From a virus: a stretch of 64,000 bases of DNA. Shown piece by piece: positions 3,383 through 38,182 of this stretch (position 1 is its first letter; every line of letters starts with the position of its first letter). The stretch covers positions 22,131 to 86,130 of IMG/VR virus record IMGVR_UViG_3300024581_002302. One strand, given 5' to 3'. Both the position numbers and the translations under genes were made by a program. The notes beneath the pieces were generated by a model, which saw only the letters and a list, made by a program, of their open reading frames with translations, made no database searches and was not told the origin of the DNA.

Positions 3383-3807
3383 ACGCATACCTCGTCGCAA
3401 CCTGGTGTCCTGATGCCTGGGCGCGTGAGTACACGAAGAAGTTCGAGTGCTTCGCGTTCTTCGCTATCGGGACCCTCGAGGAAGTGACGAGCATCGGCCA
3501 CGCGTTAGGTCTCAAGCCTCAGCCATGGATTCAGAACGGTCGCTGGTGCGTCTGTTTCGATCACGTGGCTGGCCAAGGCCTGGACGACGAGCGCGAGGTC
3601 AAGCAGTGGATCTACGAGATCGAGTACCACGGCATCGCCTGGACCTGGTCCCGTGATCTCATCCCCGGCGCACCGCCTGAGTCGATGGAAGAAGACAAGG
3701 CAGCGATGAACACGTTCGCCACGTACGACGAGTTCCTCCTGGCCCTCCACGAGCCGATCGACATGAAGGCCGGCTGGCGCCCTGACACTTTGCACCTCCC
3801 CGGATGA
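3379..3807 (+). CDS. Hypothetical protein
   Basis: ATGA overlap with the previous gene; codon bias. Confidence 0.75.
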   Translation: MNAYLVATWCPDAWAREYTKKFECFAFFAIGTLEEVTSIGHALGLKPQPWIQNGRWCVCFDHVAGQGLDDEREVKQWIYEIEYHGIAWTWSRDLIPGAPPESMEEDKAAMNTFATYDEFLLALHEPIDMKAGWRPDTLHLPG

Positions 3808-4046
3808 CTTCACCTGGCCTTCTCCTGTGCGGGTTCTTATTCGCACTCGTCCTCCTCTGGCCTGAGGAATCGAACGCAGTGGTCGAACGCTGTGTGCTCG
3901 AGATCCAGATCATGTGGCTCAACTTCCGCATGAAGCGGATGCAGAAGCGCCTGTACAAGCAGCTGTGCAAGGACGCCGAGACCCTTGGCCTCCCGCAGCC
4001 GCCCCCGTTCAAGTTCACCCCCATTCAAGAGCGAGGCAAGTTCTGA
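3804..4046 (+). CDS. Hypothetical membrane protein
   Basis: ATGA coupling; N-terminal hydrophobic helix. Confidence 0.65.
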   Translation: MTSPGLLLCGFLFALVLLWPEESNAVVERCVLEIQIMWLNFRMKRMQKRLYKQLCKDAETLGLPQPPPFKFTPIQERGKF

Positions 4047-4507
4047 TGTTTCTCCCCAACTTCAAGGAGATGGCATACGACCGCTGGCTGGAACGTTCAG
4101 TCGGTGGTCTGTGGGTCTCCGACCGTCGCTACCTGTACTACGGCAAGAACGGCGACAAGGTCGAGGCGAAGGCCATCAACCTGACCACGGAGTTCAGCGT
4201 CGAGCGCCACCAATACGGCACCTATGCGGTGACCTGGACTGGCCAGACCTCCGGGACGATGGTGTTGACCCTCGAGGACGACGTCCTGCATCGGGACATC
4301 GGGTACTTCTCGAAGGATCCCACCGATTCCCTGCTCGAGCGCATTGACCACGACACCGTGGTGTTCAGGACCACGTACGGCGGCCAGACCTTCCGCGAGG
4401 AGGTGCGCTACGTCGAGCCCGATCTGCGCCTACGTCAGACCGTGGGCTGGGATGAGACATCCGAGCGTCTGCTGCTGGCTGGCCAATACGTCGAGCGGAG
4501 GACCTGA
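4046..4507 (+). CDS. CpcS/CpeS-like (S/U/V-type) phycobiliprotein lyase
   Basis: W-x-S-x-R N-terminus, LHRDIGY and DTVVFRTTY..EEVRYVEPDLRLRQT resemble the CpcS beta-barrel pattern as recalled; TGATG coupling. Confidence 0.7.
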   Translation: MFLPNFKEMAYDRWLERSVGGLWVSDRRYLYYGKNGDKVEAKAINLTTEFSVERHQYGTYAVTWTGQTSGTMVLTLEDDVLHRDIGYFSKDPTDSLLERIDHDTVVFRTTYGGQTFREEVRYVEPDLRLRQTVGWDETSERLLLAGQYVERRT

Positions 4508-6165: not shown

Positions 6166-7752
6166 GTGAGGGCTTCCATGTACGACGTACTCGTCAATCA
6201 TCCCACTGACGACCCGACCCTTGTGTCCTATGTGCGCCCCGAGCTGCGCGCGCTGTCCGAGGAGCTTGTCAGAGTCAACGACTGCTTCACGCTGATGCGT
6301 GGCGATGACTGCCGGGCCAAGTACTTGCACCAGGAACCAGGCGAGCCCGACGCCGCGTACATGAGCCGCATCAATAGGAGCACCTACACACCGGTGTTCA
6401 GGGATTCGATCCGCGCCTTCGCTGGCCTGCTGGGCAACTACCAGGAGAGCGAACTCCCCACCACCCTCGACGAGAACATCGAGAACGTCGACATGATGGG
6501 CTCGAGCCTGGCCAAGTTCCTGAACGATCTGGACCAGTTGGTCCTTCGTGATGGTGGTGCTGCTGTGTTGGTGGAGATGCCACCCGAACAGCTGGAGCTG
6601 GAGAGCGCACTCGAGGAGATGGAGGAGCAGCGTCGCCCCTACCTGGTCCACGTCGAGCGTCAGAACATCATCAACTGGAGGACCACCATGTCCGGTGGTC
6701 GTGAAGTGGTGCAGCAGTGCGTGATCCGCACCCTCGAGGAGCGTGAGAGCGAGGACGGCGTGTTCGGCACCCACCTGGAGCCTGTGTACGTCCACCTGTA
6801 TCCGGGCGGCTTCTGCAAGTACGAGCTGAAGCGTGGCGCAGGTGACTCGAAGTGGCAGATGATCAAGATCGCCGAGGGTGTGACCAGCCTCCCCATCGTT
6901 CCCCTGGTGTGGATGGGTGCCACTGGCTCGAAGTTCGGCGTCGGCTCTGTGCCCCTGGTGGGCCTGGCTGACCTGAGCATCCAGCACTACCAGCTACGGA
7001 GCGACCTGGCTGAACTGCTGCACAAGTGCGCCATGCCCGTGCCTGTGCGCAAGGGTGCACCAACAGATGCCCATGGCCGGCCTGCAGCGCTGACCATCGG
7101 ACCGAACACAGCCATCGACCTGCCAAACGAGGGGGACTTCTCCTTCGCTGAGCCCAGCGGCTCATCCCTGCAGCGTCACCAGGACGAGATCACGCACGTC
7201 GAGTCCCTGATGGACCGCAGCAGCCTGTCCTTCATGTATGGCCAAGGCGGCAACCGCACAGCCACAGAAGCAGCCCTGCAGGGTGCACAGATCCAGGCCC
7301 AGGTGAAGACCCTGATCGAGAACAAGGAGAGCGCGGTCGACATGATCGTCCGCCTGTGGGCGACGTACACGGCCGAGAAGATCAGCGGCGAGTCAGGCAT
7401 CGAGGTGTCCGATTCACTGATCCAGCGCCCACTGGAGGCCCAGGAGGTGCAGGCCCTGTTGAACCTGTACGCCGAGAACGCCATCAGCCACCAGACGCTG
7501 CTCGAAGAACTGCAGCGCGGCCATGCCCTCAGCTCTGAGATCGACATCGAGGAGGAGATCAAGCGGATCGACGAGGAGAAGAAGAAGGCCCAGGAGGCGC
7601 AGATGAAGATGATGGAGGAGATGGGTGGCCTCGCAGGTGGCCCTGAGGATGAGGCGCCAGCACCTGGCAAGTTCTCCGAGAGTGAGAAGGATCAGGACCC
7701 TGCCAAGGAGCAGGAAGCCAAGGCCAAGGGCACCGAAGCGGAGGCGAAGTGA
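6166..7752 (+). CDS. Portal protein (DUF4055-like)
   Basis: 528 aa; YLHQEPGE..AY..R..R..Y, PYLV......IINWR and RTATEA motifs; acidic tail. Confidence 0.85.
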   Translation: MRASMYDVLVNHPTDDPTLVSYVRPELRALSEELVRVNDCFTLMRGDDCRAKYLHQEPGEPDAAYMSRINRSTYTPVFRDSIRAFAGLLGNYQESELPTTLDENIENVDMMGSSLAKFLNDLDQLVLRDGGAAVLVEMPPEQLELESALEEMEEQRRPYLVHVERQNIINWRTTMSGGREVVQQCVIRTLEERESEDGVFGTHLEPVYVHLYPGGFCKYELKRGAGDSKWQMIKIAEGVTSLPIVPLVWMGATGSKFGVGSVPLVGLADLSIQHYQLRSDLAELLHKCAMPVPVRKGAPTDAHGRPAALTIGPNTAIDLPNEGDFSFAEPSGSSLQRHQDEITHVESLMDRSSLSFMYGQGGNRTATEAALQGAQIQAQVKTLIENKESAVDMIVRLWATYTAEKISGESGIEVSDSLIQRPLEAQEVQALLNLYAENAISHQTLLEELQRGHALSSEIDIEEEIKRIDEEKKKAQEAQMKMMEEMGGLAGGPEDEAPAPGKFSESEKDQDPAKEQEAKAKGTEAEAK

Positions 7753-27985: not shown

Positions 27986-28864
27986 ATGACTGTCCCCTCG
28001 CCACGGAACAAACTTCTGCCAGCGCGCGGTGAGTACGCGACGCTCGAAGCAGCGAAGCAGAGCCTGTTCGAGGGTGAGTTCGTCTGGGCGAAGGACACGA
28101 ACAAGTACTACCAAGTCGTCGACGGTGAACTGGCACCCGTCACCGTCAACCCGAACGAACTGGCGCTCGTCAGCGGATCGATCGCCACCGTCGAGGCCAA
28201 GGCTGACCAGAACACATCAGACATCGCGCTGAACAGCCAGAGCATCGTCGACGAAGCGGGGCTGCGCTCGTTCAACGACATAGCACTGCAGACCCAGATC
28301 AACGCGAAGGCCGACCTGATCGACGGCAAGATCCCGACGTCTCAGGTCCCAGGGATCGCGATCTCCGAGTTCCTGGGCGAGGTGGCTGATGAGGCCGCGA
28401 TGCTCGCCCTCGTAGGAGAGAAGGGCGACTGGTGCATCCGCACCGACGTGAGTGACACCTACGTGATCACCGGAGACGATCCATCCGTTCTCTCGAGCTG
28501 GACAGAACTGGCCAGCCCTGGCGGTGCTGTCGCCAGCGTGAACAATCAGACCGGAGCCGTCGTTCTTGGCGCTGCTGATGTGGGCGCTGCAACAGCCGCC
28601 CAGGGCGCCATTGCCGATTCCGCCATTCAGCCAGGCGATGCGATCAGCCAGCTGATCAACGACAGCGGATACATCACCGCAGCAGATGTCCCGGCCGCTC
28701 CTGATGTTCCGACCAAGACCTCCGACCTGACAAACGACTCGGGATTCATCACAGCAGCAGAAGCACCGGTGCAGCCCGGCGACCTGTTCTCCGGCTCATA
28801 CAACGACTTGACCGACAAGCCGGACAACGCCCTGAACCTCGCCGCTCTGCCTGAACTGCCATGA
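27986..28864 (+). CDS. Tail fibre-like protein
   Basis: NDSG(Y/F)IT repeats, SVNNQTGAV, SGSYNDLTDKP. Confidence 0.75.
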   Translation: MTVPSPRNKLLPARGEYATLEAAKQSLFEGEFVWAKDTNKYYQVVDGELAPVTVNPNELALVSGSIATVEAKADQNTSDIALNSQSIVDEAGLRSFNDIALQTQINAKADLIDGKIPTSQVPGIAISEFLGEVADEAAMLALVGEKGDWCIRTDVSDTYVITGDDPSVLSSWTELASPGGAVASVNNQTGAVVLGAADVGAATAAQGAIADSAIQPGDAISQLINDSGYITAADVPAAPDVPTKTSDLTNDSGFITAAEAPVQPGDLFSGSYNDLTDKPDNALNLAALPELP

Positions 28865-30714
28865 GCACCCTGAACGACGCCGACCTCCTCCTGGTCGAAC
28901 GCAACGGCATCCAGTACCACGTCACATCCGCCGACATGAGCAACCTCAACGACACCGACCTCCTGCTCGTCGAGCGCGATGGGGTTCAGTACAAGATCGA
29001 AGCCCAGTATGTGAAGTCGCTGGCCAACAACCTGAACCCAGCGATCCCTCCCTTCGTCAGTCAGTCCGGCCCTGAGACTGTTGTCGGCAACAGCGACGGC
29101 AAGGTCCAGTTCTCGCTGGATGGCACCAACTGGCAAAGCTCGCTCACCATTCCGCCCGAGACCCTTTATTACAGCGACTGGACGAGCGACATCCTCTCGG
29201 CTGCCCACGGGAGCCAGTACACGACCTCGATCAACGTGGGCTACCCGAACGTGGGGGCCGCTCAGGACATCGAGCTGGGTCTGAGCATCGACAAGCTGCC
29301 TGATCCCTTCGCCCTTGACAACCTGACGGACGTCGTCGGCCTGCTGCAGTACACGTCGAACACCATCTCCCCGCTGAGCACTATCAACGCCCCGACTTCC
29401 ATCTGGGGCAGCAGTGACGCAACCGACCCCGAGATCGCAATCGCTGACGGCGACTGGGAGCCACTGCCCACGACACCCGACACTCGCTACGTGAACATGA
29501 ACGCGCGCGTCCGCGTTCGTCACACAGCAGGGGCCGCGGAGGACTATCCGTTCACCACAACACTGAACATCGGATACGGAACCGCCGCTGGCGAATACGA
29601 GACCAGCGACTTCGTGACCAGGACGGCAAACGTTGTTTACCTCACGCCGACCATCACGCCGGTCGACGGGGTCTTGATCAACAAGGACTCCGCAGTGTTC
29701 ACGATGTCCGATCCTGTCGGGGCGAACATCAACCACGTGGCCACCGACTGGGAGTTCGCTTCAGACTCGGGCTACACCAACATCTTCGCCTCATCGCTCA
29801 ACGATTCGAGCAACCTGTTGAGCTACACACTCACCGGGCTGAGTGAAGGCCAGACGGTCTACGCCCGGGCCAGGTTCATCGACGCTTCGACGGTGGTCTC
29901 GCCTTACGCTACGAGCCCAGCCCTTACGGCCCGAGAGTACTTCTTCTGGCGCTTCCAGATCCGCATTCAGGGCGGCCAAGGCGGTGGCGATGCCTTTGGC
30001 AAGCAGGCAGGTGGCTCCGGTGGCAGCGGCTACGTCGTACTCGAATCGACCGAAGCTTCGGTGGCGCCTACGGGCTCCATCGAGCGCTACGACGGCACCA
30101 ACGGCTACCACTACGACAACCAGGGCGGCACTGCAGACGGAGCCTTCGGCTTCGACGGCGGTTCGTACAGCCACAAATACGGCGGCGGTGGCGGCGGTGC
30201 AGGTGCATTCAAGCTGAACGGCACTCTGATCGCTGGTGTTGGCGGTGGCGGCGGTGCAGCTGCCGGCGGTAGCGCTGACCACGAGCGCAACAACAACCGT
30301 GGTGGCAATGGCGCAGGCCTGCCCTCTGCAGCTGGTGAGCGCGGCTACACGGTCGGCTGGAAGACCTACTTCGAGAACGGTGGCACGTCTAGCAGCACGG
30401 GCTCCTCAGGTGAGAACGGCGGAGGCAGCAGCGGAAGCGCATCTGGCGCGGGTGGCGGCGGCTTCGGCGGTGGCGGCGGCGGCCAGGTCCACGACGACCG
30501 CAACAGCCAAGGCGGCGGTGGTGGTGGTTCCTGGAACCAGTCCATCGGCTACTTGCAAGACGGTTATCAGATAACCCAAGCCCAGGACACCAGCTTCACA
30601 GGCAGCACCAACCAGGTCGCCAAGTACAAGGCGCCAATCAGCAGCCCCACGAGTTGGACCCTCGTCGGACAAAACGACAGCAGCGGCGTCATTGATCTGA
30701 ACAGCGGAGTTTGA
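28861..30714 (+). CDS. Tail fibre-like protein with Gly-rich C-terminal domain
   Basis: Duplicated LND.DLLLVER.G.QY N-terminus; GGGG-rich C-terminus. Confidence 0.75.
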   Translation: MSTLNDADLLLVERNGIQYHVTSADMSNLNDTDLLLVERDGVQYKIEAQYVKSLANNLNPAIPPFVSQSGPETVVGNSDGKVQFSLDGTNWQSSLTIPPETLYYSDWTSDILSAAHGSQYTTSINVGYPNVGAAQDIELGLSIDKLPDPFALDNLTDVVGLLQYTSNTISPLSTINAPTSIWGSSDATDPEIAIADGDWEPLPTTPDTRYVNMNARVRVRHTAGAAEDYPFTTTLNIGYGTAAGEYETSDFVTRTANVVYLTPTITPVDGVLINKDSAVFTMSDPVGANINHVATDWEFASDSGYTNIFASSLNDSSNLLSYTLTGLSEGQTVYARARFIDASTVVSPYATSPALTAREYFFWRFQIRIQGGQGGGDAFGKQAGGSGGSGYVVLESTEASVAPTGSIERYDGTNGYHYDNQGGTADGAFGFDGGSYSHKYGGGGGGAGAFKLNGTLIAGVGGGGGAAAGGSADHERNNNRGGNGAGLPSAAGERGYTVGWKTYFENGGTSSSTGSSGENGGGSSGSASGAGGGGFGGGGGGQVHDDRNSQGGGGGGSWNQSIGYLQDGYQITQAQDTSFTGSTNQVAKYKAPISSPTSWTLVGQNDSSGVIDLNSGV

Positions 30715-30800: not shown

Positions 30801-31430
30801 ATGGCTTCCTGTTCCCAGTACTCTGCAGCCTTCGGCTATCAGGTCTACATCGTGCCCGTCGATGGCTGCGGTGTTGACCTGACTTCCGTCACCGGCGGCG
30901 TGAAGGCTGGCGGATTCATCGATCCGACCACCATCGCCGACCAGACCGCCAAGGTCGAAGAAGGCGCAACCCCTAACCAGATCCTTCTCGAAGACGCGAA
31001 CATCGTCTACGACAACGACGTGATCACCACCCAGACCGTCTTGCGTCTGTATGGCCTCACCAACGCCGCGCTCGAGACCGACACCTCCAGCGAGACCGTC
31101 CAGACCTACGACACCGAGTCCAAAGGTTTCGACCAGTCCATCGCTACCTCCAAGAGCTGGAGCATCTCCCTCGAGGGCGTGTCCCAGTTCGGCGACGCCG
31201 GCTACAAGACCCTGCGTCTGCTCGAGCAGAACGCCGTGGCTGGTGCACTGAAGTGCAAGATCGGCCGCGTCGGCCCTACCGGCACCACTGAGGCTGTCTA
31301 CGGCTACGTGACCCTGACCGGCTTCTCTGAGTCCATCGAGGCTGGCTCCATCGTGTCCTGGAGCGTTACGGCTACCGGATACGGCGGTTATGCCCTGGAT
31401 CTCGACAACGGCACCGACGCCCCTGAGTAG
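30801..31430 (+). CDS. Major tail (tube) protein
   Basis: 209 aa; very strong codon bias; SKSWSISLEG and FSESIEAGSIVSWS; position before the tape measure gene. Confidence 0.8.
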   Translation: MASCSQYSAAFGYQVYIVPVDGCGVDLTSVTGGVKAGGFIDPTTIADQTAKVEEGATPNQILLEDANIVYDNDVITTQTVLRLYGLTNAALETDTSSETVQTYDTESKGFDQSIATSKSWSISLEGVSQFGDAGYKTLRLLEQNAVAGALKCKIGRVGPTGTTEAVYGYVTLTGFSESIEAGSIVSWSVTATGYGGYALDLDNGTDAPE

Positions 31431-32006
31431 CTGACAGGAGGGGTCGCCTCCTTGACAGTTACTGATGCCGGAACCGGCATCGTCGACGACACCTACGCCG
31501 CTCAAGGTCTCACCACCACGAGCGGCTCTGGGGCTAACGCCACCGCAGACATCGAAGTCTCTGGTGGCTCAGTCGTCTCCATCAGCCCAGTGGCCGCAGG
31601 TACCGGGTACAAGGTCGGAGACACCATCTCCGCATCTCTCCCCAGCGAGCCTGTCGTCACTCCTGGAACCGGTGAAGCTCTCACCGCCTCCTTCGCTGGA
31701 GGAACAGGCCTCGACGCTTCTGATGGAACCGTCAGCATCACCGCCTCCGAAGGTGTCTTATCTGCAGGCATCGGAGCCGACGCTGAGTTCGACGTCACCA
31801 TCACAAGCGGAGAAGTCACAGCCGTCGCCATCACAGCAGGCGGCACCGGTTACGAGGCAGGCGACGAGATCACCTTCGATCCCACCGTCGTCCTCGGATC
31901 TACAACCGGAACCGACTTGGTCGTCACCATCGACACCGTCGACGAAGACACCACATCCGCTGGTCCCAGCGTCACCATCACCGCAGAAATCGCAACCATC
32001 AGCTGA
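31431..32006 (+). CDS. In-frame extension of the major tail protein (read-through) or a separate TTG-started decoration protein
   Basis: Same frame, open directly after TAG 31428-31430; two GA.A...V.GG.V......GTGY..GD repeats. Confidence 0.7.
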   Translation: MTGGVASLTVTDAGTGIVDDTYAAQGLTTTSGSGANATADIEVSGGSVVSISPVAAGTGYKVGDTISASLPSEPVVTPGTGEALTASFAGGTGLDASDGTVSITASEGVLSAGIGADAEFDVTITSGEVTAVAITAGGTGYEAGDEITFDPTVVLGSTTGTDLVVTIDTVDEDTTSAGPSVTITAEIATIS

Positions 32007-32064
32007 TCGTTTCCCCACCTACCTCTCCGCGACCCAGAGGCAAGGACAAGAACGATCGGAAGAC

Positions 32065-32087
32065 AAGGGCCTTCGGGCCCTTTTTTT
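32065..32087 (+). terminator. Intrinsic terminator
   Basis: AAGGGCC-TTCG-GGCCCTT followed by a T run. Confidence 0.9.
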
Positions 32088-32264
32088 ATGCACGTTCCCC
32101 AGCCCATCTACGAGCAGCGCATGGCGGTGTGCGGAGACTGCACACGCTTCGAGCGAACACGCGGGCAGTGCCAGGCCTGCGGCTGCTTTATGACCGTGAA
32201 AGCACGAGGAGCCCATACCACTTGCCCCATGGGGCTCTGGGAACCATGGAGGCCGGAAGCCTGA
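32088..32264 (+). CDS. Small Cys-cluster protein, DUF6171-like (58 aa)
   Basis: RMAVCGDC...CQACGCF..KA.....CP..LW; missing from the ORF track. Confidence 0.7.
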   Translation: MHVPQPIYEQRMAVCGDCTRFERTRGQCQACGCFMTVKARGAHTTCPMGLWEPWRPEA

Positions 32265-32287
32265 TCTGAATGTTCGGACAGTGAGCT

Positions 32288-35200
32288 GTGGCAGGCCTCG
32301 GTGAAGTCAAAATTGACGTAGGCCTAAATACAGCGCCTGCCGAGGCGCAGCTGACGTCGTTCTTCGGGAAGATCGGCAACCAGCAGGTGAAGGACCCTCT
32401 GAAGGGTCTGGACAAGTCATTCGGCAAGACAGCAGAGCAAGCGAAGAAGCTCGGCTTCGAGTGGGATTCCACCACCAAGAAATTCAAGAGCGACCAGGGG
32501 TTCACCCAGACGGTCGACCAGATGAACAAGACCCTCAAGAACCTTGGGGGCACAACAAAGAAGAGCGCGCAGGACTTCGACAACCTGGCGAAACGGGTCA
32601 AGGGATCCGCCGACCAGTGGAAGTTCCTCACCGGAGGAGCACAGCAGCTTCAGCAACAGCTCAGCGGTGTCTCCAGCAGCGCACAGAAGACCTCGAAGGA
32701 TCTCCAGGGTCTGGGCAAGGGTGACAGCCTGAAGACGGTCAGCGGCTCCTCGAAGACTGCAGCGACGAACATCAAGCTGCTCGGGACGTCTGTCCAGACA
32801 ACGAACAACCAGCTGAAGGGACTCGGCGGCGGCGCGAAGCAGGGCCTCGATGGAATCGGTGCGTCAGCCAAGACCGCAGGGACCAGCATCAACGGCCTGT
32901 CGAAGGGTGCACAGACCCTCGGCTCTGCCTTCGTCAGCCTGGGCAAGCAGAAGCCCCTCGTCCCGATTGCGACCAGCCTGAAGACCCTCTCGACGCAGGT
33001 CCCAGGTGTTGCTCAGAAATTCACCACCCTCGGACAGTCCGTCGCGAAGGCAGGCCAGGGAACCCAGTTCCGCACACTCGGCCAGCAGCTGAACTCCCTC
33101 GTCGCTCCGGCGCAGAACGCAGCCAAGGGTGTCGACGGACTCGAGAAGGAATTCAAGGAAGCCGGCCAGCAGGGCCAGACCTTCTCCGGTCAGATCCAGC
33201 AGGGCTTCCAGCAGATCCTCCAGGGCATCCCGACAGGCATCGGAATCGCCATCGGTCAGCAGCTGCTCGCACCACTGCAGCAGGTGACGCAGATCATCCC
33301 GGCAGCTGTCGCTGAATTCAGGGCGCTCGAGGAATCGATCTCCCTGACGGTGGCCATCATCAACGGATCAGCGGCTGAGTTCAGCGCACTCTCTGAGTCG
33401 ATCCTGAAGGTCTCCTCGAACTCCGCAGCAACGGCCCAGGAGGTCGGCGGTGTGGCTCAGTCCCTTGCACGTGCGGGCTTCTCCCTCCAGGAGATCGACG
33501 CGGCTCTGGCTGGCGTGGTCAACGGCGCAGAAGCAACCGGCACCAGCTACGAGGCGATGGGTCAGATCGTGGTGAACGCTCTGGGCGCCTATGGCCTGGC
33601 AGCAGAAGAAGCGGGCACGGTCTCCGACTCCCTGACCGTTGCGGCCAACAACTCGAACCAGTCCGTCACCGACCTGGGCGAGGCCCTGAAGTACGTCGGC
33701 CCGATCGCCGCGGCAACTGGCCAGGACTTGAACGACACAGCCCTCGCGCTGCAGCTGCTCGCAGACTCAGGCATCAGAGGCTCACAGGCTGGAACCAGCT
33801 TCCGGACAATCCTCACGAACCTGCAGATCGCCGCCTCCGGTGCGGGTGAGGAATTCATGGGTCTGTCCCGTGGATCAGCTCGTCTCGAGAAGGCTCTGAA
33901 GCTGATCGGCGCCAACATGACCGACGCGAACGGTGAGCTGCTCACCGGTGCGGATCTGATCAAGGAGCTGCAGCGCTCGATGGAAGGCCTCTCTAACGGC
34001 GAGAAGGCTCTGGTCTCGAAGGCCCTGGCCGGCTCTGAAGGTCTGCCTGCACTGAACACCCTGATCTCCGCCAGTGGCGAAAAGGTCGACGAACTGGCAG
34101 ACAAGCTGGAGAACAGCGCAGGCGCTGCAGCTGATGCAACCGCCAAGGCCCTGTCCGGACTGTCTGGTTCGTTCAAGCTGCTGCAGTCGAACATCTCCGC
34201 GTTCCTGGTTCAGATCGGCGGTGTGATCGCGACCGTCCTGAAGCCCCTGGTGGACCTCGTCACCGCGGTGATCTCAGGGTTCAACAACCTGCCCGGACCG
34301 ATCAAGAACGTGATCACCGTCCTCGCACTGCTAGCGGCAGGCATTGCCGCCGTGAACGTGGCGATGGTGGCCCTGCAGGCTGCAACCACGAGCGCATTCG
34401 GTCAGAAGGTGACCGCAGCGGTGGCGCAGTTCGCGACCACGATCACCCAGGCCAACATCTCCGGAGCGATCTCTGGCTGGATCGGATCGATCGGGACGCT
34501 GGCCAGCACCTTGAACAAGAACATGATCAAGGGCCTCGGCCTTGCAACTGAGGCGATCCTGAAGTTCAGGAAGCAGCTGGTCGATGTCGCCTCGAAGGGC
34601 TTCTCGACATTCATGTCCGCGATCCAAGGAATCTCCTTCAAGGACTTCACCTCCGGGGTGAAGCAGGCCGCGATCGCAATCAAGACGAAGATGGTCGCCG
34701 CCATGGCCACAGGCAAGGGTGCAGCCGCTGGTCTTGCTGCTGCGTTCGGCCCGCTCGTCGCTTCGATCGGCGCGTTCCTTGTTGCCGCCGCACCATTCAT
34801 CGCGATCGCTGGAGCTATCGCCGGAGCGATCATCCTGATCAAGCGGAACGTCGACTCCTACAACGCCGTCGCGAAACCTCTGAAGAAGTCGACCGAAACG
34901 CTCACGAAGTCCATGAAGGACACCGCCGAAGGTGCCAAGGACGCCGGCGAAGGCTTTAAGAGCTGGGGCGATCGGATCTTCGGGATTCTTGGCCCCTTCG
35001 ACAAGTTCTTCTCGATGCTGATCCCCGGCTACAAGCTGGTGAAGGACTTCCTGAACATCCTCGGCAACGTCGAGAACTGGGCCAGGAACCAGAGCGCGAT
35101 CCTGGCTGCCAACAACGCCCAGGCCGAGTTCCAGCGCGAACTCGACAAGTCGAACGCGAAGATCGAGGCGAACCGTCAGGCCTTGGCCAGCGGGACGCTG

Positions 35201-38182
35201 TCACAGGCAGAAGCGAACCGAGCCCTCGCAGAGAACGGGAAGTTGATCCGCGCCCAGCAGGAAGCGATGGATCAGCGCATCGGTGCCCTCGACCAGCAGA
35301 TCAAGAAGCTGAAAGAAGACGAGGCCGCCAACAAGGACACCATCCAGACCCTCGAGCGACTGAAGGGCGAGTACATCGCACAGAAGGCTGTCATCGATGC
35401 GAACGCTGCTGCTCTGAAGGAGGAGCGCATCGCGTACGACGAACAGAACCAAACGATCTCGGACTACATCGGCCGCCTGAATGACGCCAAGGAAGCCCGG
35501 GGTCAGATCGAAGCACAGAACGTCGCGAACTCATACCAGAACGAACTGGACGCCCTGAAGGCTGTCACCGATGGATTGATCACAAAGGAGGAAGCCCAGG
35601 CACGGGTCGCCACCGTCACGAAGGAGAGCATCGACAAGCAGATCGAAGCCGAGCAGGACTTGATGGAGGCGAACGAGGCCGCCTACTCCCGGATGCTGAT
35701 CACCCAGGAGGAGTACGACAAGGTGAAGGCCCAGAGCACCGAGAAGATCAAGGAGCTGCTGCGCGAGCAGGCTGTCGCCGAGAACGAGCTGAGCGAAGCA
35801 ACCACCGCTGCGATCAACCGTCGACTCTCCGACATGGAGAAGGAGATCACCCAGATCGAAGCGAACGCCGGCAGAGCCTCGTCTGCTCTCCAGGGGATCT
35901 TCACCATTCAGGGTTCAGCCATCGGTGCGTTCAAGAACCTCGCCCAGCAGGTCACCACCCTCGAGATCACCCGGGCCGACAACGTGCAGCAGAAGCGCCT
36001 CGAAAACATCGACAAGGAGGAGAAGGCACGCCTGAAGATGATCGAGAAGTCATCCCTCTCAGACGAGCAGAAGGACCGAGCCAAGGAACGAGCCCAGCAG
36101 GACTTCCAGAAGCAGCGGGACTCGGCCGAGCGTGAGTTCGAGGCGAAGCGGAAGGCCGCACTGTCTGAACAGATCGCCCTCGAGGCGCAGATGAACGCGG
36201 CGAACTACGTCGCCAAGAACGCGGAGCTGCAGCTCTGGTACACCCAGCAACAGATCCAGCTGCAGATCCAGGCCACCCAGGCCGAGATCAACAAGCAGAG
36301 AGCCATCGCCGAGGGTGACGACAAGGCTGTCGCCGCATACAACAAGCAGCTCGAGCTGATCAACCTCCAGCAGCAACAGCTGCCCAAGGTGCTGCAGATG
36401 AAGCAAGAGATCCTGCGAGCAGAAGAGGATGCAGAAGGCGCTGCTCTGGCGAACAAGGCCGCGGCGGAAGGACTGAGCGAATCTCTGGCCCGCTACGCCG
36501 TCCCGACGCTGGACGAGGTGAAGAGCCGCTTCGCGTCCATCTCAGCAATCGGCGACGACCTGGCCGGTGCGTGGGATGGATTCCAGACATCGGCCGAGGA
36601 GATCCCGAGCGATGTCGAGGGTGTCGTCCAGAAGGTGAAGACCAACATCGACAGCATCAACGACGCCAGCTTCGATCGCTTGCGCCAGGCCTTCATCGAC
36701 CGCGGTTTGAATCCGGGAGTGGCCGAAGAAATGGCCCGCGGTGTTGTGGCCACCTACGAGGCAGCAGGCGCCGAAGCAGGGGACAAGGCAGCGAAGAACA
36801 TCTACGACCGGTTCGGTGAATCGGTTCCGAAGCAGCTGATCAAGGACCAACTGCTCGAGGCATTCCAGCAGGGCTCGCAGCTCTCGGCTGAGGCGGCGAA
36901 GAAGAAGTTCAACGAACTGCCTGACCTGGTGCCGAAGGAGCAAGTCGCCAAGGCAATCGGCGCAGGCTTCGGAGAAGGTGCGCAGAAGGGGATCGATGTC
37001 CTGAAGAACACACCACTGCCCGATGGAATGCTGGCCGCAATCCAGGCCGAAGAGGAATGGGAGCAAGTCGCCGAGGCCTACGTCGACTACCTGGGCGAGC
37101 CGAGCCTGCTCGACAAGGCAGGACAGGCGATCGCTGACTGGTGGAACGGAGCCGAGAAGAGTGGCGACATCCAGAAGGCGGGCGAGAGCGGCGCCAAGGA
37201 GTACGCCAGCGGAATCGAGGACAACACCGACGTGAAGGAAAGCGTCGGAACTCAGTTCGAGGAAGGCACGAAGGAGGGCGTCAGCGCAGCCCGGACCATC
37301 GTCAAGCAAGAAGCCCCGGAGATCGGGAAGGACTTCGCCGACGGCGTCTCTGGAGCCCTCAGGGACAACGCCGAAGCGATGGCCGCTGCCATCACCACCG
37401 AGGTCGAGAAGGCGAAGGGCGCGTTCCAGGAACTTGCCAACGCAGTCGACACCTCGAAGCTCGAGACAGCCATGAACAAGGCCGTCGTCGAGCCCGTCAA
37501 CAAAGCGAAGCAAGCTCTCGAGGGTCTCTCTGGTGGCGAGCAAGCGTCCCAGAGCTTCAGGGACATGGCCAGCGCAGCGCAGACCATCGCGCAGCAGAAC
37601 CTGAACCAGATCTACAGCTCCGTGTCTCGTGACTCCCGCAGTGCATCCACTGCCAGCCGGTCTCTGGCGTCTGCAATGCGCAGCGCTTCGTCTTCTGCTC
37701 GTTCGTACGCCTCCTCGATGGAGAGGGCAGCCAGAGCTGCAGCAGCTGCCGCCCGGTCGAAGTGGACAGGTGGCCCGGTCCAGAGCGGCCAGACCTACAC
37801 GGTCAACGAGCTGGGCAAAGAGATGTTCATGTCCAGCAGCGGCAAGCTCTCCGAGATCAATGCTCCGGCGTTCGGCTCCTGGCGCGCACCATCCAGCGGA
37901 ACCGTCATCCCTGCAGGCATGGCCCAACAGATCCGCAACCAGCGCGACGCGATCGCTGCCTCGACCTCTGCGGCTTCGATGGCTGGCGGTGGTTCTGCGA
38001 TGGCTGCGATGTCCGAGGGCCCGAGCCTGAGCGGTGCAATCGCCCGCGGTTTCAAGGGAATCGGCCCGATGGGCAACAACCAGGTCGTGAACAACGTCAA
38101 CGTCTCCAGCGATCGCCCGGTCAACGATGCCTCCCGCATCCTCACCGATCTCGCCCGGATCCGTGCCCAGCGCAGGCGCTGA
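32288..38182 (+). CDS. Tape measure protein
   Basis: 1964 aa, helical and Ala/Gly-rich; TP901-like core (AQSLARAGFS, AANNSN..V.DLGEALKYVGP). Confidence 0.95.
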   Translation: MAGLGEVKIDVGLNTAPAEAQLTSFFGKIGNQQVKDPLKGLDKSFGKTAEQAKKLGFEWDSTTKKFKSDQGFTQTVDQMNKTLKNLGGTTKKSAQDFDNLAKRVKGSADQWKFLTGGAQQLQQQLSGVSSSAQKTSKDLQGLGKGDSLKTVSGSSKTAATNIKLLGTSVQTTNNQLKGLGGGAKQGLDGIGASAKTAGTSINGLSKGAQTLGSAFVSLGKQKPLVPIATSLKTLSTQVPGVAQKFTTLGQSVAKAGQGTQFRTLGQQLNSLVAPAQNAAKGVDGLEKEFKEAGQQGQTFSGQIQQGFQQILQGIPTGIGIAIGQQLLAPLQQVTQIIPAAVAEFRALEESISLTVAIINGSAAEFSALSESILKVSSNSAATAQEVGGVAQSLARAGFSLQEIDAALAGVVNGAEATGTSYEAMGQIVVNALGAYGLAAEEAGTVSDSLTVAANNSNQSVTDLGEALKYVGPIAAATGQDLNDTALALQLLADSGIRGSQAGTSFRTILTNLQIAASGAGEEFMGLSRGSARLEKALKLIGANMTDANGELLTGADLIKELQRSMEGLSNGEKALVSKALAGSEGLPALNTLISASGEKVDELADKLENSAGAAADATAKALSGLSGSFKLLQSNISAFLVQIGGVIATVLKPLVDLVTAVISGFNNLPGPIKNVITVLALLAAGIAAVNVAMVALQAATTSAFGQKVTAAVAQFATTITQANISGAISGWIGSIGTLASTLNKNMIKGLGLATEAILKFRKQLVDVASKGFSTFMSAIQGISFKDFTSGVKQAAIAIKTKMVAAMATGKGAAAGLAAAFGPLVASIGAFLVAAAPFIAIAGAIAGAIILIKRNVDSYNAVAKPLKKSTETLTKSMKDTAEGAKDAGEGFKSWGDRIFGILGPFDKFFSMLIPGYKLVKDFLNILGNVENWARNQSAILAANNAQAEFQRELDKSNAKIEANRQALASGTLSQAEANRALAENGKLIRAQQEAMDQRIGALDQQIKKLKEDEAANKDTIQTLERLKGEYIAQKAVIDANAAALKEERIAYDEQNQTISDYIGRLNDAKEARGQIEAQNVANSYQNELDALKAVTDGLITKEEAQARVATVTKESIDKQIEAEQDLMEANEAAYSRMLITQEEYDKVKAQSTEKIKELLREQAVAENELSEATTAAINRRLSDMEKEITQIEANAGRASSALQGIFTIQGSAIGAFKNLAQQVTTLEITRADNVQQKRLENIDKEEKARLKMIEKSSLSDEQKDRAKERAQQDFQKQRDSAEREFEAKRKAALSEQIALEAQMNAANYVAKNAELQLWYTQQQIQLQIQATQAEINKQRAIAEGDDKAVAAYNKQLELINLQQQQLPKVLQMKQEILRAEEDAEGAALANKAAAEGLSESLARYAVPTLDEVKSRFASISAIGDDLAGAWDGFQTSAEEIPSDVEGVVQKVKTNIDSINDASFDRLRQAFIDRGLNPGVAEEMARGVVATYEAAGAEAGDKAAKNIYDRFGESVPKQLIKDQLLEAFQQGSQLSAEAAKKKFNELPDLVPKEQVAKAIGAGFGEGAQKGIDVLKNTPLPDGMLAAIQAEEEWEQVAEAYVDYLGEPSLLDKAGQAIADWWNGAEKSGDIQKAGESGAKEYASGIEDNTDVKESVGTQFEEGTKEGVSAARTIVKQEAPEIGKDFADGVSGALRDNAEAMAAAITTEVEKAKGAFQELANAVDTSKLETAMNKAVVEPVNKAKQALEGLSGGEQASQSFRDMASAAQTIAQQNLNQIYSSVSRDSRSASTASRSLASAMRSASSSARSYASSMERAARAAAAAARSKWTGGPVQSGQTYTVNELGKEMFMSSSGKLSEINAPAFGSWRAPSSGTVIPAGMAQQIRNQRDAIAASTSAASMAGGGSAMAAMSEGPSLSGAIARGFKGIGPMGNNQVVNNVNVSSDRPVNDASRILTDLARIRAQRRR

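What the first reader, a model, noticed from the sequence alone, without database searches (positions are those of the whole stretch)
30801..32006. Probable amber read-through giving an extended major tail protein
The gene ends CCT GAG TAG and continues in frame, CTG ACA GGA GGG GTC..., for 191 codons of a two-repeat beta domain. Five nt after the stop, AGGAGG-GGTCG-CCTCCT forms a hairpin that hides the only Shine-Dalgarno for the TTG at 31452. Either UAG-C read-through gives a ~401-aa decorated subunit, or the hairpin sets coupled low-level initiation. Tail-tube extensions are known mainly through frameshifts (SPP1 gp17.1*), so read-through would be a less usual route.
Basis: partly seen in the sequence, partly recalled or inferred. 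Interest (0 to 1): 0.7.

Follow-up and report, generated by a model that had tools for sequence, protein, structure and literature searches.

The report
Leaky amber stop extends cyanophage tail tube
In this marine cyanobacterial virus and dozens of relatives, the tail-tube gene ends in the same TAG stop and short conserved signal, followed in frame by a folded add-on domain that mostly has no start codon, so some ribosomes probably read through the stop and decorate a fraction of the tail subunits.

Summary
The major tail protein gene (30801-31430) ends in TAG. The frame stays open for 191 more codons, to TGA at 32004-32006, and the hairpin is real and larger than described.

Relatives settle most of the interpretation:
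- **Shared junction.** 45 distinct junctions end in TAG followed by YTG-AYT-GGR-GG, always in frame with 81-191 codons of a protein-like domain.
- **No extension without TAG.** 99 tail genes ending in TGA or TAA have no such domain downstream.
- **No conserved start.** The window's TTG (31452) is a start codon in only 8 of 45 junctions. Eight extensions have no ATG, GTG or TTG at all.
- **Other architectures.** Close relatives fuse the same domain to the tail protein with a sense codon. Others carry a long fused gene and a short tail gene in tandem.
- **TAG is otherwise a normal stop.** The genome has no tRNA genes.

Best reading: programmed amber readthrough gives a minority 401-aa decorated tail subunit (about 0.75). 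Restart at the adjacent CUG is the main rival. The hairpin is specific to this lineage, not the shared signal. No protein data exist.

This scan noted the same device earlier in an S-CBS2-like phage (e1-5795110). I found no published description.

The parts
30801..31427 (+). Major tail (tube) protein coding sequence, 209 codons
   Evidence: PF06199 Phage_tail_2 at E 4.1e-7, 30.5 bits against a cut-off of 23.8. phrog_38654 tail protein at E 8e-79. About 50% identity to the tail proteins of S-CBS2, S-CRES3 and P-SS2.
31428..31441 (+). Proposed recoding signal, TAG CTG ACA GGA GG. Family consensus is U-UAG-YUG-AYU-GGR-GG. The window differs at -1 (G, not T) and at the third base of the AYU codon (A, not T).
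   Evidence: Across 44 distinct junctions: TAG 44/44, +4 C 40 and T 4, TG 44/44, A 43/44, T 41/44, GGR 43/44. Third codon positions here carry 1.1-2.0 bits, against 0.07-0.27 further on. These codons are minority choices in the pooled codon usage. The motif occurs once in the 99.5-kb genome.
31431..32003 (+). In-frame extension of 191 codons: a short linker, then two beta-barrel domains at roughly 31431-31706 and 31707-32003. The stop is TGA at 32004-32006.
   Evidence: AlphaFold2 mean pLDDT 92.8, all-beta, two domains. Homologues P0002-P0009. The same domain is fused to tail proteins in P0011-P0014 and P0017. Purifying selection: 66% of differences fall at third positions.
31426..31463 (+). 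15-pair RNA hairpin enclosing the stop codon, the AGGAGG block and the TTG. It is specific to this lineage.
   Evidence: -21.1 kcal/mol, z -2.6. z -4.4 against synonymous resampling. Not conserved: the family mean z of -1.34 matches control sites inside the tail gene. Pairing of GGRGG is no higher than in resampled sequences.
31452..31454 (+).
   Evidence: This codon (the eighth after TAG) is ATG, GTG or TTG in only 8 of 45 junctions. It is GCT in the closest relative L094. P0002 has Phe here. In the full-length model the first strand of the domain starts three residues upstream of it.
32065..32087 (+). Rho-independent terminator closing the tail-protein unit (GGGCCTTCGGGCCC plus a T run)
   Evidence: In relatives without an extension, an equivalent terminator directly follows the tail protein's TGA.

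Best explanation
The major tail protein gene of this P-SS2-like cyanosiphovirus ends in a programmed leaky amber codon. Most ribosomes stop at UAG (31428) and make the 209-aa tube subunit. A minority insert an amino acid, probably from a near-cognate host tRNA, since the phage has no tRNA genes. Those ribosomes continue in frame through a roughly 12-residue flexible linker into two small beta-barrel domains. The result is a 401-aa subunit that co-assembles into the tube and displays the domains on the tail surface.

The signal is a short linear sequence around the stop (U-UAG-YUG-AYU-GGR-GG), not the hairpin.

**Shown:** conservation of the stop, the motif, the frame and the coding character; absence of a conserved start codon; existence of natural fusions.

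**Inferred:** that readthrough happens, its rate, the residue inserted, and the function of the domain (surface decoration, perhaps weak binding to the host cell).
For: 1. Among about 165 related loci, all 63 with an in-frame extension (45 distinct junctions) end in TAG followed by YTG AYT GGR GG. Tail genes without an extension end in TGA (a few in TAA) followed by a terminator.
2. An HMM of the extension domain hits 62 of 62 times directly after TAG in the same frame. It hits 0 of 99 times downstream of TGA or TAA tail genes, in any frame.
3. No conserved start exists. Eight of 45 extensions have no ATG, GTG or TTG anywhere, and many others have the first one beyond codon 50 of about 85. The window's TTG position is a start in only 8 of 45. 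The closest relative, L094, has GCT there and its first start is at codon 53.
4. The constraint is at the nucleotide level. Third codon positions at -1, +6, +9 and +12 are nearly invariant, although CTG is only 42% of Leu codons, ACT/ATT about 30% of Thr/Ile codons, and GGA+GGG 19% of Gly codons. Four-fold sites of the tail gene meanwhile have a median identity of 0.49, against 0.33 at saturation.
5. The extension evolves as protein: 223 synonymous against 100 nonsynonymous codon changes.
6. Natural fusions exist: P0011-P0014 and P0017. L014 and L095, whose tail proteins are the most similar to the window's (up to 79% identity), are single fused genes. L014 reads CCC GTG ACT GGA GGC ATC where TAG forms read TAG CTG ACT GGA GGC ATC. 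L015-L018 and L096/097 carry a long fused gene and a short tail gene in tandem.
7. TAG is an ordinary stop in this genome (12 of about 97 crude genes). The motif is unique there and no tRNA gene is present.
8. The junction lies in a low-confidence linker between two well-folded parts.
9. The S-CBS2 counterpart, gp020, is annotated 'structural protein'.
Against: - There is no protein-level evidence: no junction peptide and no size data.
- I could find no known bacterial mechanism by which such a 3' motif raises UAG readthrough.
- The codon after the stop is always CUG or UUG. That also fits a restart next to the stop, and such a restart would keep the frame automatically.
- Four of 44 junctions have U at +4, which in E. 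coli is a strong termination context (from memory, not tested here).
- No conserved stimulatory RNA structure was found.
- The window deviates from the consensus at two motif positions.
Confidence: 0.75

Rival explanations
1. Termination followed by reinitiation. The ribosome stops at UAG and restarts at the adjacent CUG (UUG in 4 of 44 junctions). This would make a separate low-abundance 191-aa protein that then binds the tail.
For: The codon after TAG is always YTG. In fused forms this residue is not Leu (it is V or P), so the constraint lies in the signal and not in the protein. A restart at the adjacent codon explains frame conservation automatically. A gene caller started P0002 at that codon.
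Against: - CUG is a very poor bacterial start codon (my own knowledge). ATG and GTG, each one mutation away, never occur in 44 junctions.
- No Shine-Dalgarno-like sequence is conserved upstream of the stop.
- This model does not explain why TAG is never TAA or TGA despite near-saturated synonymous sites.
- It does not explain the conserved -1 T.
- A free single 85-aa domain has no evident anchor to the tail, whereas relatives attach the domain covalently.
Confidence: 0.12
2. In this phage the extension is a separate gene that starts at TTG 31452 using the AGGAGG 10 nt upstream. The hairpin limits or couples its translation.
For: AGGAGG and TTG have good spacing. S-CBS2 has GTG at the same codon and is annotated that way. 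The hairpin is significantly stable in this window.
Against: - The start at this codon is present in only 8 of 45 junctions. It is GCT in the closest relative and Phe in P0002.
- The position is simply a hydrophobic V/L site in the first strand of the domain.
- GGAGG encodes a conserved Gly-Gly and varies at third positions. It is missing in L167, L123 and L033.
- The seven 'spacer' codons align with coding sequence in the fused proteins.
- The hairpin is not conserved.
Confidence: 0.06
3. TAG is decoded as a sense codon throughout, by code reassignment or a suppressor tRNA, so the gene is simply one 401-aa ORF.
For: Some phages do reassign TAG (my own knowledge). The frame is open across the TAG.
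Against: No tRNA gene exists in the 99.5-kb genome. TAG closes 12 of about 97 crude gene calls with unrelated contexts, and long genes such as the 1964-aa tape measure contain no in-frame TAG. The relatives that carry short and long tail genes in tandem suggest that both forms are wanted.
Confidence: 0.03
4. The extension is a decaying remnant of a former fusion, cut off by a nonsense mutation and not expressed.
For: The window's nearest tail-protein relatives are intact fusions.
Against: 45 distinct junctions keep the same stop, an open frame of 81-191 codons and a purifying-selection signature. The extension model is confidently folded.
Confidence: 0.02

Closest known systems
Q-beta coat protein and A1 readthrough protein (ssRNA coliphage)
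   Same: A virion structural gene ends in a leaky stop. A minority of subunits gains an in-frame C-terminal domain through host near-cognate decoding, and no phage tRNA is involved.
   Different: Q-beta uses UGA in an RNA phage capsid. Here the stop is UAG in the tail tube gene of a dsDNA siphovirus, with a conserved motif of about 15 nt. The comparison rests on my own knowledge of Q-beta.
SPP1 gp17.1/gp17.1* and Listeria phages A118, A500 and PSA (extended major tail proteins made by frameshifting)
   Same: There are two forms of the major tail protein. The longer form carries a surface-exposed C-terminal domain, made by recoding at the end of the gene. In SPP1 the ratio is 3:1 and the domain is dispensable (PMC8718954, PMC5009743).
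   Different: Those phages shift frame (+1 or -1) at slippery sites and add Ig-like or FN3 domains. Here the extension is in frame zero, the other frames close quickly, and the domain is a small beta-barrel with no clear Ig-like match.
MuLV gag-pol and plant-virus UAG readthrough (3' context with or without a downstream structure)
   Same: UAG with a conserved sequence directly 3' of the stop, starting with C at +4.
   Different: Those are eukaryotic ribosomes, and MuLV needs a pseudoknot. Here no conserved structure was detected, and the host is a bacterium with RF1.
Synechococcus phage S-CBS2 gp019/gp020 (NC_015463)
   Same: The arrangement is the same: a tail protein ending AAT TAG CTG ACT GGA GGT, an in-frame 85-codon extension, and then a terminator. 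gp020 is annotated as a structural protein.
   Different: S-CBS2 has one domain and this phage has two. S-CBS2 is annotated as two separate genes with a GTG start, and readthrough is not annotated.

Membership tests
Programmed stop-codon readthrough (recoding) | Open in-frame continuation after the stop that encodes a conserved protein under purifying selection | tested here: met
   191 codons in the window and 81-191 in 45 relatives. 223 synonymous against 100 nonsynonymous codon changes. Confident fold.
Programmed stop-codon readthrough (recoding) | Stop codon identity and flanking context conserved beyond coding needs | tested here: met
   TAG 44/44. The -1 T and the YTG AYT GGR third positions carry 1.1-2.0 bits, against about 0.2 elsewhere. 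These are minority codons. Relatives without an extension use TGA or TAA.
Programmed stop-codon readthrough (recoding) | Downstream region lacks its own initiation signal | tested here: met
   Eight of 45 junctions have no canonical start at all, and codon 8 is a start in only 8 of 45. The adjacent CUG or UUG remains a formal possibility.
Programmed stop-codon readthrough (recoding) | Extended protein detected, with an amino acid at the stop position | not testable with these tools
   No proteomic data were accessible. The S-CBS2 paper is not held.
Structure-stimulated readthrough (MuLV or alphavirus type) | Conserved 3' RNA structure with covariation | tested here: not met
   The window's hairpin is significant, but the family mean z of -1.34 equals that of control sites. 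GGRGG pairing is 0.64 native against 0.74 resampled.
Frameshift-extended major tail proteins (SPP1 gp17.1*, A118 or PSA Tsh) | Extension encoded in the +1 or -1 frame and reached at a slippery site | tested here: not met
   The extension is in frame zero. The +1 frame hits TGA at once (TAG CTG A), and in the window the -1 frame closes after 12 codons (read).
Phage_tail_2 (PF06199) tail tube proteins | Pfam score above the gathering threshold | tested here: met
   30.5 bits against 23.8. phrog_38654 at E 8e-79.
Gp18_dom_I (PF22639), the T4 sheath domain I-like beta-barrel, for the extension domain | Pfam score above the gathering threshold, or a clear structural match | tested here: inconclusive
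   17.7 bits against a cut-off of 27. VIA-align to 3foa_A gives Z 4.3, rmsd 2.9 over 75 residues, among many rows of similar Z. BFVD hits are to cyanophage fibre and structural proteins, E down to 6e-9.
Genome-wide TAG reassignment with a suppressor tRNA | Suppressor tRNA gene and in-frame TAG in many genes | tested here: not met
   No tRNA gene. TAG ends 12 of about 97 gene calls, and the motif is unique in the genome.
Translational coupling by termination-reinitiation | Canonical start codon overlapping or adjacent to the stop, usually with an upstream Shine-Dalgarno sequence | tested here: inconclusive
   The adjacent codon is CUG in 40 of 44 and UUG in 4 of 44, never AUG or GUG. No upstream Shine-Dalgarno sequence is conserved.

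The most novel reading that the evidence does not exclude
U-UAG-YUG-AYU-GGR-GG is a dedicated, compact, structure-independent signal that makes bacterial (cyanobacterial) ribosomes read through an amber codon at a set rate. It would be the first defined readthrough cassette of a tailed dsDNA phage. In this family evolution swaps it with gene fusion and with duplication of the tail gene to tune how many tube subunits carry surface domains.
Probability: 0.55. Interest if true: 0.8.

Novelty: new variant of a known kind. Interest (0 to 1): 0.72.

Why it matters
Extended tail and capsid proteins of tailed phages are known to arise by frameshifting. Stop-codon readthrough is textbook for RNA viruses, but I found no description of it for a tail gene of a dsDNA phage.

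- **A natural amber readthrough signal.** A conserved linear signal in more than 100 environmental cyanophage loci would give a bacterial amber readthrough context that can be tested directly with reporters.
- **Annotation.** It would correct the annotation of S-CBS2-like and P-SS2-like phages and of a Synechococcus prophage. There the extension is called as a separate or truncated 'hypothetical' gene.
- **Function.** The family solves the same problem in three ways: leaky stop, fusion, and tandem long and short genes. That makes it a good system for asking why only some tube subunits should be decorated.

Tried and rejected
- **tblastn of the extension against GenBank phages.** No hit, even though S-CBS2 has a distant homologue.
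- **Genome-contig scan with the extension alignment.** Nothing found.
- **Conserved RNA structure.** Three tests were run: MFE against shuffles, MFE against synonymous resampling with control sites, and pairing probability of GGRGG. There is no family-wide signal, so the hairpin was rejected as the core element.
- **Fold of the extension.** Foldseek against the PDB gave no match with E <= 0.001. VIA-align wide gave only Z <= 5. The fold is therefore not assigned to a solved family.
- **Same motif at other genes.** Of 118 exact IMG/VR matches, 58 end a tail-protein homologue. The other 60 are unrelated sequences in which the TAG closes no ORF.
- **Frameshift and stop-hopping.** The other frames close quickly, and take-off and landing codons do not match in general (read).
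- **16S rRNA complementarity.** A partial match of CUGAYUGG to the 16S 530-loop sequence occurred to me from memory. I dropped it as untestable here and likely chance.
- **S-CBS2 proteomics paper.** Not held.

Full report
**Observation.** The window belongs to a 99.5-kb, 62% GC phage genome with no tRNA genes. The ORF at 30801-31430 (209 aa) is a tail tube protein: PF06199 at 30.5 bits against a cut-off of 23.8, and phrog_38654 at E 8e-79. It ends GAG TAG. The frame continues CTG ACA GGA GGG GTC GCC TCC TTG... for 191 codons to TGA at 32004-32006. It has 15 pairs over 31426-31463 and encloses the stop, the AGGAGG block and the TTG, at -21 kcal/mol. A rho-independent terminator follows at 32065-32087. 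After it come a small DUF6171 ORF and the 1964-aa tape measure gene.

**Relatives.** DNA similarity places the phage among the marine cyanosiphoviruses S-CBS2, S-CRES1-3 and P-SS2. S-CBS2 has the same layout: AAT TAG CTG ACT GGA GGT ATC..., an in-frame extension annotated from a GTG at codon 8 as gp020 'structural protein', and then a terminator. In S-CRES3, P-SS2 and L004 the tail gene ends in TGA and the terminator follows directly.

**Fused forms.** An exhaustive phmmer search with the read-through translation found single proteins that span both halves: P0011 (322 aa), P0012 (676), P0013 (493), P0014 (484) and P0017 (339). In the alignment, the window's seven 'spacer' codons (LTGGVAS) align with coding sequence of these fusions. 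P0002 begins MTGGVASF, so it has Phe where the window has TTG.

**The comparative test.** Scans of metagenome and viral contigs with a tail-protein alignment gave 160 loci.
- In about 165 loci with a tail-protein match, all 63 with a long in-frame continuation end in TAG followed by YTG AYT GGR GG. These make 45 distinct junctions with 81-191 codons of extension.
- All loci without an extension end in TGA (a few in TAA) followed by a terminator.
- An HMM of the extension domain hits 62 of 62 times in the segment that starts right after TAG, in the same frame. It hits 0 of 99 times downstream of tail genes ending in TGA or TAA, in any frame.
- A further 58 IMG/VR loci carry the exact motif at the end of a tail-protein homologue. 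The other 60 exact matches are unrelated sequences in which the TAG closes no ORF.

**No conserved start.**
- Eight of 45 extensions contain no in-frame ATG, GTG or TTG at all, and many have the first one beyond codon 50 of about 85.
- The window's TTG position (codon 8) is a start codon in only 8 of 45. Otherwise it is GTC, ACT, GCT, CTC and so on, a hydrophobic strand position.
- The closest relative, L094 (69% identity over residues 1-397 of the 401-aa read-through product), has GCT there, and its first start is at codon 53.
- The L094 extension's last 136 residues match, on my reading of the two sequences, a protein annotated in Synechococcus sp. SYN20, so annotators had to start that gene at an internal GTG.
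- GGAGG is not a conserved Shine-Dalgarno sequence. It encodes Gly-Gly, varies at third positions, and is missing in L167, L123 and L033.

**Nucleotide-level signal.** Information content peaks from -1 to +13:
- T at -1 in 43 of 44;
- TAG in 44 of 44;
- C at +4 in 40 and T in 4;
- TG in 44 of 44;
- the next codon is ACT or ATT in 40 of 44;
- GGA or GGG in 43 of 44.

These are minority codons in the pooled usage: CTG is 42% of Leu, ACT 32% of Thr, ATT 30% of Ile, and GGA+GGG 19% of Gly. Four-fold sites of the tail gene have a median pairwise identity of 0.49, against 0.33 at saturation. A neutral TAG would therefore often have drifted to TAA. In fused relatives the residue after the junction is not Leu, so YTG is constrained as a signal and not as protein.

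**Coding character and structure.**
- In extension pairs 80-98% identical, 66% of differences fall at third positions, with 223 synonymous against 100 nonsynonymous codon changes.
- AlphaFold2 folds the extension into two all-beta domains at pLDDT 92.8.
- In the 401-aa model, the stop position sits in a low-confidence linker (residues about 201-214) between the last tube strand and the first domain strand. That strand begins three residues before the TTG.
- Foldseek finds no PDB match. VIA-align gives only Z <= 5, to small beta-barrels that include T4 sheath domain I and baseplate wedge insertion domains. This agrees with a sub-threshold PF22639 hit.
- BFVD matches are to cyanophage fibre and structural proteins, as are the PHROG hits.

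**Evolution.** On a tail-protein tree the TAG-extension state occurs in two deep clades, P-SS2-like and S-CBS2-like. It needs at least 7-10 changes of state.
- In the window's clade, L014 and L095 are single fused genes. L095 has the highest identity to the window's tail protein (79%).
- L014 reads CCC GTG ACT GGA GGC ATC where TAG forms read TAG CTG ACT GGA GGC ATC.
- L015-L018 and L096/097 carry a long fused gene followed by a short plain tail gene.

These tandem long and short genes suggest that a mixture of plain and decorated subunits is wanted. A leaky stop would supply that mixture from one gene.

**Alternatives.**
- *Global TAG reassignment* is excluded. There are no tRNA genes, TAG closes 12 of about 97 crude gene calls, and the motif is unique in the genome.
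- *Frameshifting* is excluded, because the domain is in frame zero.
- *The hairpin* is significant in this window (z -4.4) but not family-wide. The mean z of -1.34 equals that of control sites in the tail gene, and GGRGG pairing is no higher than in synonymous resamples.
- *Restart at the adjacent CUG or UUG* remains the main rival. It would also keep the frame. It does not explain the exclusive use of TAG, the -1 T, the absence of AUG or GUG, the lack of an upstream Shine-Dalgarno sequence, or how a lone domain would attach to the tail.

**Literature.** Reviews of recoding and of major tail proteins describe frameshift-derived extensions (SPP1, A118, A500, PSA, T7/T3) but no readthrough in tail genes. 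Searches for cyanophage or tail-tube readthrough found nothing. My analysis reaches the same reading on independent data and extends it to the P-SS2-like clade, with a two-domain extension.

**Verdict.** Programmed amber readthrough is the best-supported mechanism (about 0.75). It is unproven at the protein level.

Noticed in passing
L094 (IMGVR_UViG_2910013374_000001, 106 kb), extension at 3631-4194: The closest relative appears to be a P-SS2-like prophage or viral region of Synechococcus sp. SYN20. The last 136 residues of its extension match, on my reading of the two sequences, P0006 'hypothetical protein SynSYN20_01655', which lies on a 2.73-Mb contig. The annotated gene starts at an internal GTG because no nearer start exists.
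   Followed up: partly
window 32088-32264 (+); L003 about 6369-6556: A 58-aa cysteine-rich ORF (PF19668 DUF6171, E 9.8e-9; phrog_13558) sits between the terminator and the tape measure gene. The same ORF is present but unannotated in P-SS2.
   Followed up: partly
L015, L016, L017, L018, L096, L097: These relatives carry two tandem tail-tube paralogues: a long one fused to 2-3 extension domains (487-493 aa) and a short plain one (210 aa). The tape measure gene follows.
   Followed up: yes
window 30801-38182 and relatives L001-L004: No pair of tail assembly chaperone genes with the usual -1 frameshift lies between the major tail protein and the tape measure gene in this family.
   Followed up: no
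window 28861-30714 (+): A 617-aa ORF directly upstream of the tail tube gene has no Pfam or PHROG match.
   Followed up: no
window 31464-31481: A second short hairpin (GAUGCCGG-AACC-GGCAUC region) directly follows the large hairpin. Its conservation was not examined.
   Followed up: no
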